Shown: positions 12,001 through 21,000 of the stretch, one piece after another
Layout of the letters: every line of letters starts with the position of its first letter
Position numbering within the stretch: the stretch's first letter is position 1
Assembly: GCA_027050205.1 (NCBI GenBank)
Contig: JALUCS010000056.1
Span: 1-45,525 of the forward strand
DNA: 45,525 nucleotides
Direction of reading: 5' to 3'
Origin: a candidate division WOR-3 bacterium
GTDB lineage: Bacteria > Hydrothermota > Hydrothermia > LBFQ01
Position numbers: made by a program

Positions 12001-15000
12001 GGACGTGATAGGGACCCAGGCCGAAGCGTACGGCGTTAAGGTGATACACGGATGGAACGGTACCACCATCTGGCAGTCCGGATCGGACAGGTACTCCTAC
12101 CCTCCCATACCCGCAGCCGCCTCCGATACGAGGGTCTTCGCCGTAGGATACAACTACTTCCAGGTTTTCAACCTCTCCACCGGTTCAACTATCTACAGGT
12201 ACTCAAAAGGTGGCTCTAGGGATCCCGCTCCTGCCGTAGCCGATATAGATAACGACGGCTGTCCGGAGGTATATACGGCCTTCGGCCGTACGGCCGTCGC
12301 CATAAACGGCTGCGCCTCCTCCTACTCTACCTTATGGACCTACTCCCTACCTGCGTCTCCCTACGCCCCTGCCCTTGGGGACGTGGATGGGGACGGAGAC
12401 CTTGAGGTCCTGTATCCCACGAGCAACAGCACTGTTTACGTCTTGGACGCTGCCACTGGCAGTTTCCACAGTTCCTTCTCGTTTGGCTCTCCCTACTCAG
12501 GTATGCCCGATTACACGGTGGCCTTAGATGACCTTGACGGGGACGGGAAGGACGAGGTCGTGACCGTTACCACCTACTACATCAAGGCCCACGATTTCAA
12601 CTACGGTTGGAGTGAAAATTGGTCCGTCTTCATCTACTCCGGTGGCTCTGTCCCTGCCCTTGGGGACAAGGACGGCGACGGCCTACCCGACGTATGGGTC
12701 ATAAGGAACAACAACGTCTACGTCTATAAGGGGACGGATGGTTCCCTCCTCGGTAGCTCCAGCGTCGGCGACCTGAACTCCGACTATCCTCCATCCCTCG
12801 CTGACCTTACCGGCGACCGGATCCCAGACGTTCTGGCTATCAAAGGCTCCCATTATGTCCGGGTCATCAACGGTGCGACCCTCACCCCGGTAATGACGCT
12901 CGGCTCAACTCCTTACGGCATAACCTCCGAGGTGGTCGTCTTGAAGCTCCGGAATACCCTCGGCCTTACGGTCGGGGATCACTCCTGCCACATAAACACT
13001 TGGGGCGGCTGTCTCATCGGTACGGACGACGAGCTATCCGTAGGAGAGAAGGAGGATGCCCAATCCACCCTGAAGTTTGACGGCACGTACGTAGTGGCAA
13101 AGGGGAGGGAGATAGAAATCTACGACCGCTCCGGACACATCCTCCTAAGGGGCTACGGCAAGGTCTCGGTGTCCTCCCTGCCCAAGGGCATATACTTCGC
13201 CCGCTCCGGCGAGAAGGTCATAAGGATTGCAGTCAGGTAGGACTGCAGGGGAGGTTAGAACTTTATCCGTATATCTGCCCTGATCTGGTTCTTGCGGGTG
13301 AAGATGCCTCCTTCGTAGTCGCCGCTTAGGTCGTAGATGTAGCTGAAGGTGGCCTCAACGGCGTTGCTGAACTGGTAGGTGGCGCTTAGGGTCATATTCT
13401 CGCTCTTCCGACGGGATAGGGTGTCTATAGAGTTCGGGAGGCCCTCAAAGAGGTGGTTTATGGAGACGTCCGTACCCGTTGAAACACTGTATTTAAACGA
13501 TAAAGTTAGCTGATTTTTAAGAGAAAGTAGACGACTTTTACTCCAGGGGAACCTTATTCCAGCAAAACTTGTAAAGGTGTGGCTTACGGTCAGGTCCTGG
13601 TTGGTTTGGACGGATCTGGTCTCCAGGTTGGTGGCGGAGTACACCTGGTGGTCTGTCGTGTAGGTGTAGGTGTAGGTGTACCTCAAACTGGTGCCGTTCC
13701 GTAGGGTAGCGTTGGGCGAGAAGCTTAGGGTCCTCGTCCTCCTCTCCGTCTTTGGTTCCACCGTATCCGTCGCCGTAGGTTCCCATAGGGGATAGGTGGT
13801 GGCGCTCCTCTCGTCAGAGTAGCTCACGGTGAAGTCGGAGGAGGCTACGAACTTGAGGTTGGAAACTATCGGGAGGGGCCGCCCGTTGAGGGTGAGGTCG
13901 GGGAACCTCCACGTCTCGGTTAGCATCCTCCTCGTCCTATCGTCGCTTAGGTCCCTCCGGTAGCTGCCGCGGGGGGAGAGGCGGTAGTTCCCCAGATTGA
14001 TGTCCGTTGAGAGGTCGTAGTTGTGGGTCTCCCTCCACATAGACCTCTGGGTGTCCGTTACGATAACCTCTGGGTCTAAGGAGATGCCGAGGCGGTAGGG
14101 TAGGGAGGCCCGGCCGAGGGCGGCGTAGAAGTTGGACGTACGGCTGAAGGAGTAGCCGAACCTAACGCTCCTCCAGACCCGTGAGAGCCTCTCCATCCCG
14201 TACAGGATGGTGTGTAGGGGGCCGGCCTTGGAGAGGGCGGTATCCTTGCTCTTATCCCTCAATCCCCCTATCTTGGAGAGGATGGTCCCGCTCTCCAGGT
14301 TGAGGTTGAAACCTACGCTCAAGTCCTCGTTTAGGTCCCGGACGTCAAACCCGGTTAGGGCGTTCTCCGGTTTCCTACTCTCCGAATAGCCGTGCCTGTA
14401 GTTTATGGAGGGCTGGAGGAACCAGATCGTTCCGAGGTTGAGGGAGGAGGTTAAGTTCTCCCTGAACTGGCTCTCAAAACCGAGGAGGCTATCCAAAGGG
14501 GTCTTGAGGAGTTCCCCGTACCGGTAATCGCCCCGGCGGGAGACGGAGTAGCCGAAGCCCAACATACCGGGGATGGGGTCGTAGTTTATGCTGGCAGATA
14601 GGTTGCCGTTTTTGTCCGTTCGGCGGGTCTTGGCCCCCAACACGTCGGAAAAGGTCGCCGTCCGCCTGTAATCGTAGGAGATGGAGTATGAGGAGGGGAG
14701 GTACCTGTACCTGCGGCCCCCCAACATAAACTCCCCCGTTGGCCTGTAGGAGTACCTGACACCGTAGTTCTCGGATACCGTTGAATCCTTGGACTGTCCC
14801 GGTATGTAGGAGAAGTCGTACCTGCTGCCGTAGTTGAACCGCCAGGGGTCTAAGAACCACTTTCCGATGAGGTTGGTGGAACCGTTTTTGGAGAAGGTGA
14901 AACCGTAGGACGTCGTCTTGCTTACGGAGGTCAGGCGATGCCTCTCCTCCTCCGTAGTGACGGGGACGTCCAGACCGGGGTAGAACTTGGGCAGACGGCT

Positions 15001-18000: not shown

Positions 18001-21000
18001 GTAGAAGAAGGTCTCCTTCAGGTAATCGCTCCCCCATATCGTATCGGTGATTATCTGGGATTTGGCCTGGAAGACTTTGGTCTGGCTCTGGCCTTTCTCC
18101 TTGGTGGCAACGGCCACTATCTTGGCCGGACCAAAGGCGAACCTACCCTTCAGACCGAATAGGCCCGCTCCCGCACCGATGGAGGAGTAGCTAGTACTGG
18201 GGAAGTCGGAGACGTCTATGTCCCCCGCCTGAAGGCTCTGCACTATGTCGTCGTCCGTACCGGTGTAGGAGAGGAGTATCTTCTGGCGGTTCATCTCCGT
18301 CGCCTCGGAGTTGTGTCTGACCTCAACCTTCAAACGGTCGGTTATCTGGCCGGTTATTATGACGTTTAGGGTTTGCTTCATGTTCAGGCCGGGGACGTTG
18401 CTCATCTGGTAGGTGTTGTTGAGGTTCTGCCCGCCGGGACTTAGGAGGTCTTCCTTGTATCCACCGATTGAGATGGTTTGACTTCCCCGCAGGGATACCT
18501 TGCTGACGCCCTCCCCGAGGAACCTCCACCGCTTGGGGATCTGGACGGGTACCTCTATGTCGGGGACGAGACCGGATATGGCGCTGGAGGAGGCGGTATC
18601 GTAGGGCTTTACGGTCGTCTTACGGAGGTACCTGACGAGGTTTATGCCGAAGAACTCGTCCAAGGAGTAGACCTTTACGGTGTCCTGCGTCCCGAAGTAG
18701 TCGTATACGCCATACACACCGGTGGAGTCGTAGGTGTAGGTGTAGGAGAAGGTCTCCTCCAAAAACCTCCGTGTGAAGTAATCTTCGTATGAGAGAAGGA
18801 GCCAGATCACCTTACACGAACTCTATACCTTCTACGCTCCTGACGACGCTACCCCTGTAGAGGAAATCTATCTGCCTCAAGGCGAAGTGATAGTCGCCCT
18901 CGTTGAGGGCAGAAACGCCGTCCATCGGGACGACAACCTCGTACCATCTAAGGGCAGCCGAACCGGCCGTGTGCAACACGCATATGTTGGCCACCGTACC
19001 AACGACGACGAGCCTCTTGACCCCCTTTAGGCGGAGTAGGTGGTCCAAGGGGGTACCGTAAAAGCCGTCGTACCGGAGTTTCTTGATGAGGGTGTCCCCT
19101 TTGTGAGGCTTAAGTTCCTCCACTATCTCCGCCCCCCACGTACCTGCCACGGCGTGCCTCCCCCATATGGCGAACTCCGGGTCCTCCTCCCCGTGCCAAT
19201 CTTGGGTGTAGAAGACGGAAACCCCGGCCTTACGGGCCTTTTCAAGGAGTTTCGCTATTGCCGGAACCGTTTTGGGAGCCTCCGGTACGAAGAGCGCCCC
19301 CTTGGGATGGACGAAGTCGTTCTGCATATCCACCACGATGACGGCAGTATCCCTCGCCGGCAGTTCCACCCTGTCCTTTACGCTGTACTCCGCCATGGAA
19401 TGGTATTATAGACCCGAAAGGGGGAGCGTGTCTAAAACTTCAAGGCTCAAGTCTACGGGTTTGGCCGCCTTCGTTATGGCACCGATGGATATACGGTCCG
19501 GCCGCAGGGACGCGTACGCCTGGAGGTTCTCAAGGGTTATGCCGCCGGAGACCTCCACCTTGAACCCCATCCTCCGGGCGGTGGGTATAGCCCTCTGTAG
19601 GGTTTCCGGATCCATGTTGTCCAGTAGGACCCAATCTATGGGCAACCCCTCAAGGCTCAAGAGTTCCTCGTAGGTATCCACCTCCACCACGAGTGGCGTA
19701 TGGGGGGCGTTCTCCCTGAAGGATAGGACGGCCTTCCGTAGGGAACCGGCTATCCTCTTGTGGTTGTCCTTTATCATACCCACGTCGGAGAGGCTGAACC
19801 TGTGGTTGTACCCTCCACCAACCCGTACGGCGTACTTGTCGTAGTACCGCAGTAGAGGGGAGGTTTTGCGGGTGTCGTATATGGGGACCCCGTCGGCCCT
19901 CTTGACGAACTCGGCCGTTAGGGTGGCGATGCCGCACATCCTACCAAGGATGTTTAAAAGTGTGCGCTCCACCAGAAGTACGTCCCTCGCCCGCCCGCGG
20001 AGTTCCGCCACCGTATCGCCCTCCCGGAACCTATCCCCATCCTCCATTTTCCTAACGATCTCCAACGAGGGGAAGAGCCGTCCGAGGGCCTCAAAGAGGG
20101 GGTCGGAGGCCAGAATGCCCCCTTCCCGCGCCACAACCGTGGCGGCCACATTAACGTTGGGGACGGCGTACCTGCCCGTAATGTCGCCAAAGGGCGCATC
20201 CTCTAACAGGGCCAAACGGAGGACCTCAACCGCCTCCACCTGCGTATTCTAAGGAGGCCCGCTGGGGCGTACGGGGGGACGATCAGAGCGAAGGGATTAC
20301 GAAGGCGGGTTTTCGGTATTCGGTGGATGGCCCACCTCTGAGGGAGTGGTCGGCGTTCTATAATTTGGGATTATGCTGATAGGGGGATAGCCTACCTTCC
20401 ACGTCCTCCCCATTAACGGGGTATTGAGCCGATAGAGGGGTACCTATCCGTCGTCCGAGTACGCATAGGGTATAGCTTCCCGACGGCATTTTTCCATTTT
20501 TTGGGCGCAGGTGAAAGTGGGATAATATGAGAAAATGTTTGTAAATATGGTAGTTAGCATCAAATTGTTAAAAATCTGCATGTACTTCCATAAAATCTTA
20601 AAATTATCCCAGTTTTATGGGGCTGTGGGGTGATAGTCATTCCATCAGCAGAATCCCGGTTTCAGAAGGTGCGAGATACAGTTCAACGGATCCTTGAAGG
20701 CCATATCGTACCATCCATAAACCTATCCACCAAATACCGCAATCTTTTTGGGGAAGTTCCCAACCCCTCATCCGCCGAATATCGCATCATCTACCGAATA
20801 TCGTTGTTTAAGAAGAAAAAGAACTGTTTGTGCCATTGTGATTTTCCCACGCTTAATCATTTAGACTCATCGTCCATACCCTCACCCTCGGCAAGGGCCT
20901 CTATCTCCCTCCATTTTTCGTACAACTTCCTTATCAGAGGGACGTACTTATCTTTGAATCGGTAGTAAATGCGGCGATTTTCAGATTTACTCTCAAGAAA

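What a model noticed while it worked through the whole genome (the two positions that open the first line are those of the whole stretch)
13255..18810. Type IX secretion translocon with about 105 cargo proteins but no PorK/L/M/N
This 2-Mb non-Bacteroidota genome devotes 5% of its genes (9.5% of residues) to proteins with a T9SS C-terminal domain and has SprA, two PorV-family proteins, PorU-like C25 peptidases and PorX, but none of the PorL/PorM motor or PorK/PorN ring held essential in Bacteroidota: a motor-less or differently energised T9SS.
Evidence so far: An HMM iterated from 17 TIGR04183 hits finds 105 proteins, all at the C-terminus, none internal. SprA_N in 19 of 19 order genomes. GldM 0 of 19; GldM, GldL, GldN and the FGE-sulfatase domain of GldK ring in a Chitinophaga control but not over cut-off in G000 and 3 near-complete relatives, one 100% complete. 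Two ExbB-ExbD-ExbD-TonB clusters (C97) are candidate energisers (inference).
(Added by a program. Inside this text positions count along the whole contig: contig position 1 is position 1 of the stretch shown here. "Call 12" and the like, gene names such as g00115 and contig names such as C1 are that model's own, and its searches are not shown. The text may have been shortened before it was handed on; [...] marks where a part breaks off. The agent that wrote the report below was given it as the finding of a first reader that could run no searches.)

Follow-up and report, generated by a model that had tools for sequence, protein, structure and literature searches.

The report
Type 9 secretion without its motor
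This uncultured WOR-3 bacterium has the outer-membrane pore, carrier and cutting enzyme of the type 9 protein secretion system and over 100 tagged cargo proteins, but none of the motor genes thought to power it, which suggests a motor-less and possibly older form of the machine.

Summary
Confirmed and widened. The ORF is a true SprA. This WOR-3 genome has 101-122 proteins with a genuine type A CTD (about 6% of genes), three PorV-family barrels (not two), a PorU-like peptidase, Skp and a PorX-like regulator. SprA is found in 193 of 201 WOR-3 genomes; GldM, GldN and GldL in 0 of 201. Bacteroidota controls rang for GldK, L, M and N.

Of the two Ton clusters, the receptor-less one (with its own PorV-like barrel) is not the general energiser: near-closed WOR-3 genomes lack it yet keep SprA and 44-104 CTD hits. 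The other is an ordinary Ton motor beside TonB-dependent receptors; moonlighting is not excluded.

The state is not unique: 66 of 96 SprA-bearing genomes in a Bacteroidota-phylum sample also lack GldM. One paper notes it for Ignavibacterium and Melioribacter, and this scan found it before on other DNA. Best reading: an energy-chain-less T9SS that releases carrier and cargo without a dedicated motor (inferred, untested). It bears on the 2025 proposal that T9SS arose from the gliding machinery.

The parts
13255..18810 (-). SprA/Sov, T9SS outer-membrane translocon, 1851 aa (about 550 aa shorter than F. johnsoniae SprA)
   Evidence: TIGR04189 317.7 > 200; PF14349; PDB 6h3i/6h3j E 8e-30; groups with other WOR-3 SprA in the tree
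4510..6669 (-). Cargo: S8 subtilase with type A CTD, 719 aa; its CTD was the one modelled
   Evidence: PF00082; CTD HMM; model best matches the RgpB CTD, Z 8.3, rmsd 1.7 over 57 residues
11738..13240 (+). Cargo: FG-GAP repeat protein with type A CTD, convergent with sprA; member of the largest cargo group (33 of 118)
   Evidence: PF13517; TIGR04183 weak, 14.9 bits; iterated HMM; clustering
33540..36002 (-). Cargo: S8 subtilase with type A CTD, 820 aa
   Evidence: PF00082; iterated CTD HMM
18812..20239 (-). Co-oriented upstream neighbours (isochorismatase-family protein, nadC); not parts of the system
   Evidence: Pfam; sprA neighbours vary among 22 relatives' loci and include no conserved transducer

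Best explanation
WOR-3 bacteria run an energy-chain-less type 9 secretion system. Cargo crosses the inner membrane, presumably by Sec. Its type A CTD docks on the loops of the general PorV carrier (C8) inside the SprA barrel, a step that needs no energy in F. johnsoniae. The PorV-cargo complex then leaves the lateral gate without a dedicated motor: it dissociates thermally from a looser, Plug-less translocon, and the step is made one-way by the PorU-like peptidase (C98) cutting the CTD at the surface. Skp and a short SprE-like TPR lipoprotein probably form the periplasmic dish. Dedicated PorV paralogues hold single cargo next to a TonB-dependent receptor (cluster 2) or next to a private Ton-type motor (cluster 1). 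Shown: the gene inventory, the CTD fold, the absence of GldK/L/M/N hits, the dispensability of cluster 1. Taken from F. johnsoniae work: energy-free loading. Inferred: that export happens, that release is unpowered, the ratchet, and that this state is ancestral.
For: SprA in 193 of 201 WOR-3 genomes against GldM, GldN and GldL_N in 0 of 201, with controls for the TIGR models. CTDs match the RgpB CTD and SprA-bound CTDs by sequence and fold, and 87 of 115 carry K/R five residues from the end, near the position of the PorV-binding lysine described in PMC10994853. porU directly precedes the C8-type porV in G110. G024 (100% complete, 3 contigs) has SprA, 48 TIGR04183 hits and a single ExbB, the receptor-linked one. 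No conserved transducer gene lies beside sprA in 22 loci. No T9SS Plug in 4 of 4 WOR-3 genomes, control positive. Substrate loading needs no energy (PMC10994853). GldM-bearing SprAs form one group, apart from WOR-3 and from GldM-less Bacteroidota-phylum SprAs.
Against: In F. johnsoniae removal of the motor traps cargo on SprA, so release needs energy there. A Ton motor is near universal in WOR-3 (185 of 201 at my cut-off, and present in the genus that missed it), so genomes lacking every PMF transducer were not shown and a Ton role cannot be excluded by presence and absence. All absence tests are sequence profiles trained mostly on Bacteroidia; no structure-based screen of the membrane proteome was run. 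The C98 peptidase is below the PorU cut-off (294 of 420 bits), the C8 barrel below the strict PorV cut-off (90.6 of 250), and no PorZ was found among 3 candidates. No expression or secretion data. The tree is unrooted.
Confidence: 0.45

Rival explanations
1. The general Ton motor (cluster 2: ExbB-ExbD-ExbD-TonB) moonlights and pulls the PorV-cargo complex off SprA, through a periplasmic adaptor such as the Skp fusion or the short SprE-like lipoprotein.
For: Near universal in WOR-3 and the only ExbB of G024. It is followed by receptor, CTD cargo and a PorV-family gene in G000, G024 and G110. WOR-3 Skp carries an extra TolB_N/CsgG-clan-like domain, and SkpA binds the SprA N-terminus in F. johnsoniae.
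Against: Its presence is explained by the receptors alone (3-14 plug domains per genome in 19 of 19 order genomes). By eye, no TonB-box-like segment at the N-terminus of the general PorV or of SprA. sprA, porU and the general porV are not linked to it in the loci read.
Confidence: 0.2
2. An unrecognised energy chain exists: either very remote GldL/M/K/N homologues or an unrelated periplasm-spanning machine.
For: Release needs energy in the one system studied. WOR-3 SprA is only 19-20% identical to GldM-linked SprA over the rough alignment, so partners could have diverged past profile reach. About 270 non-cargo envelope candidates were listed and only a minority annotated.
Against: No hit at E 0.001 in 201 genomes for three models, while SprA, PorU, PorV and PorX stay detectable at the same distance. 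No GldK/FGE-fold match even at E 1 in 3 WOR-3 genomes. Control GldK/L/M/N proteins find nothing better than E 0.03 in G000 with filters off. The 8 two-helix GldL-shaped candidates looked unrelated by eye.
Confidence: 0.2
3. Cluster 1 (Ig protein, PorV-like barrel with a periplasmic Ig domain, TPR, ExbB-ExbD-ExbD-TonB, Ig-OmpA-like protein) replaces GldLM as the T9SS energiser.
For: It has no TonB-dependent receptor and includes a barrel whose best solved sequence relative is F. johnsoniae PorV (E 6e-16; FadL/PorV fold). Gene order is intact in 14 of the 20 WOR-3 loci fetched, as far as the printed output showed (2 cut by contig ends, 2 rearranged, 2 partly out of view).
Against: Found in only 135 of 201 WOR-3 genomes (131 firmly). 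Not found in genus g5 (0 of 7), family f18 (0 of 14), f9 (0 of 3) or f16 (0 of 3), all of which keep SprA. Direct reading of every ExbB locus of G024 and G139 shows only Ton and Tol-Pal clusters, with 48 and 76 CTD hits. It looks like a self-contained device for one cognate surface protein.
Confidence: 0.08
4. The system is not a working exporter: the CTD proteins stay periplasmic or SprA does something else.
For: No direct evidence of secretion; many cargo signal peptides are unusually short.
Against: sprA is an intact 1700-2050-codon frame in most of the matches listed. 40-104 TIGR04183 hits in all 11 WOR-3 genomes tested. Cargo includes subtilases, M1, M14 and C25 peptidases, a nucleotidase and many repeat proteins. 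CTD-less mature peptides were reported in Fibrobacter succinogenes (PMC6851124).
Confidence: 0.07

Closest known systems
T9SS Extended Translocon of Flavobacterium johnsoniae (SprA-PorV-SprE-SkpA; PDB 6H3I, 8GL8) and Sov/PorV/PorU of Porphyromonas gingivalis
   Same: SprA, a general PorV, a PorU-like C25 peptidase (porU-porV adjacent in G110), type A CTD fold and terminal basic residue, Skp, a PorX-like regulator, probably a short SprE-like lipoprotein.
   Different: No GldL/M motor or GldK/N ring or track; no Plug; no PorZ found; SprA about 550 aa shorter; Skp fused to an extra domain; no native type B CTD/PorP pair seen (the one on C81 looks foreign).
SprA-PorV-Plug-only set of Ignavibacterium and Melioribacter (one sentence in PMC11705866)
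   Same: Translocon and carrier without the motor and ring genes.
   Different: That report finds Plug and 'no other T9SS protein', does not count cargo and offers no mechanism in the passages read; WOR-3 lacks a detectable Plug, has PorU-like and PorX-like genes and lies outside Bacteroidota.
Type B cargo with cognate PorP/SprF shuttles (PMC12618676)
   Same: A cargo gene directly followed by its own carrier-barrel gene (clusters 1 and 2 on C97; repeated receptor-cargo-PorV modules in G024, G110, G139).
   Different: Here the dedicated carriers are PorV-family barrels and the cargo tails are type A-like or FlgD-Ig-like.
Ton and Tol-Pal systems (ExbB-ExbD-TonB; TolQ-TolR-TolA-TolB-Pal)
   Same: Cluster 2 is an ordinary Ton motor with receptors. 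Cluster 1 has the same motor parts plus a TPR protein and an OmpA-like domain protein.
   Different: Cluster 1 has two ExbD, no receptor, no TolB, and its own PorV-like barrel; true Tol genes occur separately in G139 and G110.

Membership tests
Type IX secretion system (Bacteroidia type) | SprA/Sov translocon | tested here: met
   TIGR04189 317.7 > 200; PDB 6h3i E 8e-30
Type IX secretion system (Bacteroidia type) | Cargo with a type A CTD (7-strand sandwich at the extreme C-terminus) | tested here: met
   101-122 terminal hits, 0 decoys; RgpB CTD E 2e-7; Z 8.3, rmsd 1.7 over 57 residues
Type IX secretion system (Bacteroidia type) | PorV carrier | tested here: met
   C8 barrel over the PorV/PorQ family cut-off (152.7 > 90) though under the strict PorV model (90.6 < 250); only PDB match is PorV, E 0.003; its G110 orthologue follows porU
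Type IX secretion system (Bacteroidia type) | PorU sortase | tested here: inconclusive
   C98:1225-4689 has Peptidase_C25 and a CTD, NF033707 294 bits < 420; G110 homologue 404.7; His and Cys motifs seen by eye
Type IX secretion system (Bacteroidia type) | PorL/PorM (GldL/GldM) proton-driven motor | tested here: not met
   GldM 0 of 201, GldL_N 0 of 201; controls ring for TIGR03517 and TIGR03513; sequence profiles only
Type IX secretion system (Bacteroidia type) | PorK/PorN (GldK/GldN) ring or track | tested here: not met
   GldN 0 of 201, control positive; GldK 0 of 3 WOR-3 genomes at E 1, 2 of 2 controls
Type IX secretion system (Bacteroidia type) | SprE/PorW lipoprotein | tested here: inconclusive
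   C134:1393-2685, 430 aa, with homologues in G024, G110 and G139; 50 bits < 250; E 5.5e-14 against one control PorW; PDB hits are generic TPR proteins, SprE not among the 60 shown
Type IX secretion system (Bacteroidia type) | Plug protein | tested here: not met
   PF17116 0 of 4 WOR-3 genomes, control 119.5 bits
Type IX secretion system (Bacteroidia type) | PorZ | tested here: inconclusive
   3 hand-picked candidates far below cut-off; no genome-wide search
Type IX secretion system (Bacteroidia type) | PorG, PorT, PorF, PorE, PorD | not tested
   No family search run; C15:10623-13625 matches PorE only through its OmpA end (114 < 600)
Type IX secretion system (Bacteroidia type) | PMF-dependent export with CTD cleavage | not testable with these tools
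   Needs cells
Ton system (cluster 2) | ExbB-ExbD-TonB with TonB-dependent receptors | tested here: met
   Pfam and NCBIfam; 10 plug domains in G000
Tol-Pal (cluster 1) | TolB propeller and Pal lipoprotein in the operon | tested here: not met
   Cluster has TPR, a PorV-like barrel and an Ig plus OmpA-like protein instead; a true tolB operon is separate in G139

The most novel reading that the evidence does not exclude
In WOR-3 and other GldM-less lineages the type 9 translocon is powered by the ordinary TonB motor through a periplasmic adaptor (for example the Skp fusion), so T9SS began as a Ton-energised exporter and the GldKLMN rotary chain replaced it in one clade.
Probability: 0.2. Interest if true: 0.85.

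Novelty: new variant of a known kind. Interest (0 to 1): 0.62.

Why it matters
[quoted passage not shown] A whole phylum outside Bacteroidota, and most SprA-bearing genomes of an evenly drawn Bacteroidota-phylum sample, keep translocon and carrier without that chain; in this genome about a tenth of coding capacity goes to cargo. Either large-scale export works unpowered or by another energiser, and the translocon may be older than gliding. Cultured GldM-less genera make the question testable.

Tried and rejected
Cluster 1 as the replacement motor was my first reading (45%); rejected as a general requirement. I first read cluster 2 as missing from genus g3 (0 of 5); some searches showed a diverged copy beside a 1088-aa receptor, so that absence came from my cut-off. 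The same caution applies to cluster-1 absences that rest alone; G024 and G139 were read directly. Complex prediction of cluster-1 TonB with the Ig-OmpA-like protein: no answer. Sequencing runs: no RNA holder listed. The search for related loci with the ExbD alignment could not run (no conserved stretch), so cluster 1 was not tested outside WOR-3 beyond Atlas taxa. sprA neighbourhoods gave no conserved partner, only folD-ispA-dxs upstream and a small gene downstream in several families. The first tree held a wrong-frame row and was redone. porU-porV adjacency in G139 was not verified. A second fold search of the CTD model was not collected. No promoter or terminator between sprA and the convergent cargo gene. 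Literature: 8 searches listed no paper on T9SS in WOR-3 or on a Ton-energised T9SS; a WOR-3 genomics preprint has no occurrence of 'T9SS' in its main text (supplements not seen). Most subscription papers are outside the library and could hold earlier notice of motor-less sets.
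Full report
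1. Observation. The window is the whole contig C56 of a 2.05-Mb, 135-contig genome, 93.5% complete. ORF 13255-18810(-) is SprA: TIGR04189 317.7 bits over a cut-off of 200, with F. johnsoniae SprA as its only PDB sequence match. Close homologues of two C97 proteins are named 'candidate division WOR-3', so I take the phylum to be WOR-3; the nearest SprA records carry the label Thermotogota or none.

2. Cargo. TIGR04183 gives 43 matches, 34 over cut-off; 32 of the 34 are terminal and 2 internal. Iterating from these gives 98 to 122 terminal hits, or 101-115 after the first round with fixed 70-residue seeds, and none in reversed decoys. That is 111 of 1912 genes on my rough gene call (5.8%; 10.4% of residues), on 52 contigs, with ordinary GC. 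A profile of 30 of these tails matches the RgpB CTD (E 2e-7) and CTDs solved on SprA-PorV (some propeller proteins also score). A model of the tail of the window's subtilase has seven strands and is closest to the RgpB CTD (Z 8.3, rmsd 1.7, 57 residues). 99 of 115 end in Arg and 87 of 115 have Lys or Arg five from the end. Three cargo genes lie in the window. Of 40 cargo proteins scanned, 22 had Pfam hits: FG-GAP and other repeats, C25, S8, M1 and M14 peptidases, a PLD-like protein and a nucleotidase. The largest sequence group holds 33 of 118.

3. Other parts. Three PorV-family barrels: C8:26-1126, whose G110 orthologue directly follows a PorU-like gene and which I take as the general carrier; C97:59123, after a receptor and a tailed 777-aa protein; and C97:8734, with an added Ig domain. 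C98:1225-4689 is the PorU-like C25 peptidase (294 bits, under cut-off 420; two more C25 cargo score far lower). A PorX-like regulator is at C118:55567 (27% over 502 aa to a relative's protein that passes the PorX cut-off). Skp is single and fused to a TolB_N/CsgG-clan-like domain. A 430-aa TPR lipoprotein (C134) may be a short SprE; the test is inconclusive. No Plug in 4 of 4 WOR-3 genomes; no PorZ among 3 candidates.

4. The missing energy chain. GldM, GldL, GldN and GldK models pass cut-off in 2 of 2 Bacteroidota controls and in none of 3 WOR-3 genomes each, including one of 3 contigs at 100% and, for L, N and K, one single-contig genome. Across 201 WOR-3 genomes SprA_N is found in 193, and GldM, GldN and GldL_N in 0 (the GldL_N model had no positive control of its own, and GldK was tested in 3 genomes only). 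Control GldK/L/M/N proteins find nothing better than E 0.03 in this genome with filters off. These are sequence tests; a structure-based screen was not possible.

5. The two Ton clusters. They are the genome's only two ExbB genes. Cluster 1 (C97:8227-16265) reads Ig protein, PorV-like barrel with Ig, 854-aa TPR, ExbB, ExbD, ExbD, TonB, Ig plus OmpA-like protein, with no receptor. The order is intact in 14 of 20 loci from different WOR-3 families, as far as the output showed. It was my first candidate. But its ExbD is found in only 135 of 201 genomes (131 firmly) and not in g5, f18, f9 or f16, which all keep SprA. G024 has one ExbB, in the receptor-linked cluster; G139 has that one and a true Tol-Pal operon; they carry 48 and 76 TIGR04183 hits, and G038, G171 and G100 carry 44, 104 and 50. 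Cluster 1 is therefore not needed for bulk export; by analogy with cargo-shuttle pairs (PMC12618676, passages) it more likely serves one cognate surface protein (inference). Cluster 2 (C97:51029-) is an ordinary Ton motor: 185 of 201 at my cut-off, present in diverged form in the genus that missed it, in genomes with 3-14 receptor plug domains. Its ubiquity is expected from the receptors and neither supports nor excludes a second job at SprA. No transducer gene is conserved beside sprA in 22 loci.

6. How wide the pattern is. In 121 genomes drawn evenly from the phylum of my Bacteroidota control, 96 have SprA_N and 30 have GldM over cut-off, all 30 among the 96. The tool gives no class names; that the other 66 are non-Bacteroidia classes is my inference. 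An unrooted SprA tree (15 of my 23 WOR-3 sequences, 6 of the 30 GldM-bearing, 14 of the 66 GldM-less; 1560 columns; fast IQ-TREE, SH-aLRT) gives three groups: WOR-3 (stem 0.73, support 100), GldM-bearing (100) and GldM-less Bacteroidota-phylum (91.9). WOR-3 SprA is thus not a recent copy from a motor-bearing genome. One gain of the motor on the GldM-bearing stem is simpler than two losses, but the root was not tested.

7. Mechanism. In F. johnsoniae loading of cargo on PorV inside SprA needs no energy and release does (PMC10994853, passages and sections 9 and 12), and force is thought to pass from the GldK track through PorG (PMC12635249, passages). Here the loading half is present and the force half is not detectable. 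I put 0.45 on release without a dedicated motor, made one-way by CTD cleavage; 0.2 on the general Ton motor moonlighting; 0.2 on an unrecognised chain; 0.08 on cluster 1; 0.07 on no real export. That the system exports its cargo at all I hold at about 0.9, from conservation alone.

8. What is in print. PMC11705866 (passages) states that Melioribacter and Ignavibacterium have PorV, SprA and Plug and no other T9SS protein; its supplementary figure was not read. PMC11285876 (passage) says T9SS may occur in other FCB phyla. PMC6851124 (passages) proposes T9SS tails in Fibrobacter. PMC8542988 (passage) mentions a CTD in a Cloacimonadota protein. PMC5445135 (passages) calls T9SS exclusive to Bacteroidetes and PorL/PorM essential. 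PMC12204202 (passages) links PorE to Tol-Pal folds; the passages read do not describe cluster 1. PMC12635249 proposes that T9SS first evolved as part of the gliding machinery. A WOR-3 preprint (10.1101/2025.06.09.658677, passages) does not use the term T9SS; its supplements are closed. Eight searches listed nothing on T9SS in WOR-3 or on Ton energisation. Earlier notes of this scan report motor-less SprA sets and the cluster-1-type operon in several other phyla; I did not test those genomes.

9. Verdict. A real, phylum-wide variant of T9SS: it works like a T9SS outer-membrane module but fails membership in the Bacteroidia-type system on motor, ring and Plug. The pattern has been glimpsed in print. 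The scale, the WOR-3 case and the exclusion of the receptor-less Ton cluster as general energiser are new within the library searched. The energetics remain open and testable. Interest 0.62.

Noticed in passing
G000 C97:8227-16265 (L015): Conserved receptor-less operon: Ig protein, PorV-like barrel with Ig, giant TPR, ExbB-ExbD-ExbD-TonB, Ig plus OmpA-like protein. In most WOR-3 loci the first gene is about 550 aa; here it is 166 aa. The last protein and the TPR protein at C97:20342 share an acidic N-terminal stretch that resembles by eye the TonB boxes of this genome's receptors.
   Followed up: partly
G000 C59:12833-13759 (L158): The single Skp is fused to a C-terminal TolB_N/CsgG-clan-like domain; long Skp frames (316-360 aa) in all 4 WOR-3 genomes tested.
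   Followed up: partly
genome-wide, e.g. window 13255-18810 start; C98:1225: Many exported proteins, SprA included, begin with Met plus only 5-7 hydrophobic residues instead of a normal signal peptide.
   Followed up: no
L116, L120, L125, L128-L130; G000 C97:53588-60109: Repeated three-gene modules of TonB-dependent receptor, large tailed protein and PorV-family barrel, without SusD; the tailed protein may act as a surface lid held by its own carrier.
   Followed up: no
G000 C81 and C107: C81 (type B CTD protein plus porP fragment, GC 0.517) looks foreign to the bin; C107 has a 2864-aa repeat protein with internal TIGR04183 hits and may be too. Several short contigs have GC 0.35-0.46.
   Followed up: partly
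L121, L122, L136, L139, L141, L144, L145, L149-L152: sprA is often preceded by ispA-like and dxs-like genes and followed by a 105-155-aa gene homologous to G000 C63:17902-18348; a possible ancestral context.
   Followed up: no
G000 C15:10623-13625 (L020): 1000-aa protein of repeated CarboxypepD_reg-like Ig domains ending in an OmpA domain; a possible wall anchor.
   Followed up: no
G000 C97:77347-80688: Six tandem, near-identical genes of about 187 aa of one family.
   Followed up: no
window 6712-10723: Two large ORFs on the minus strand (460 and 875 aa) with no clear family; the 875-aa one has homologues in G110 next to cluster 1.
   Followed up: no
L138 (G067 C1:584000-603900): In family f23 the motor half of cluster 1 is split from the barrel and lies about 20 kb from sprA on the same contig, with unrelated genes between.
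   Followed up: partly
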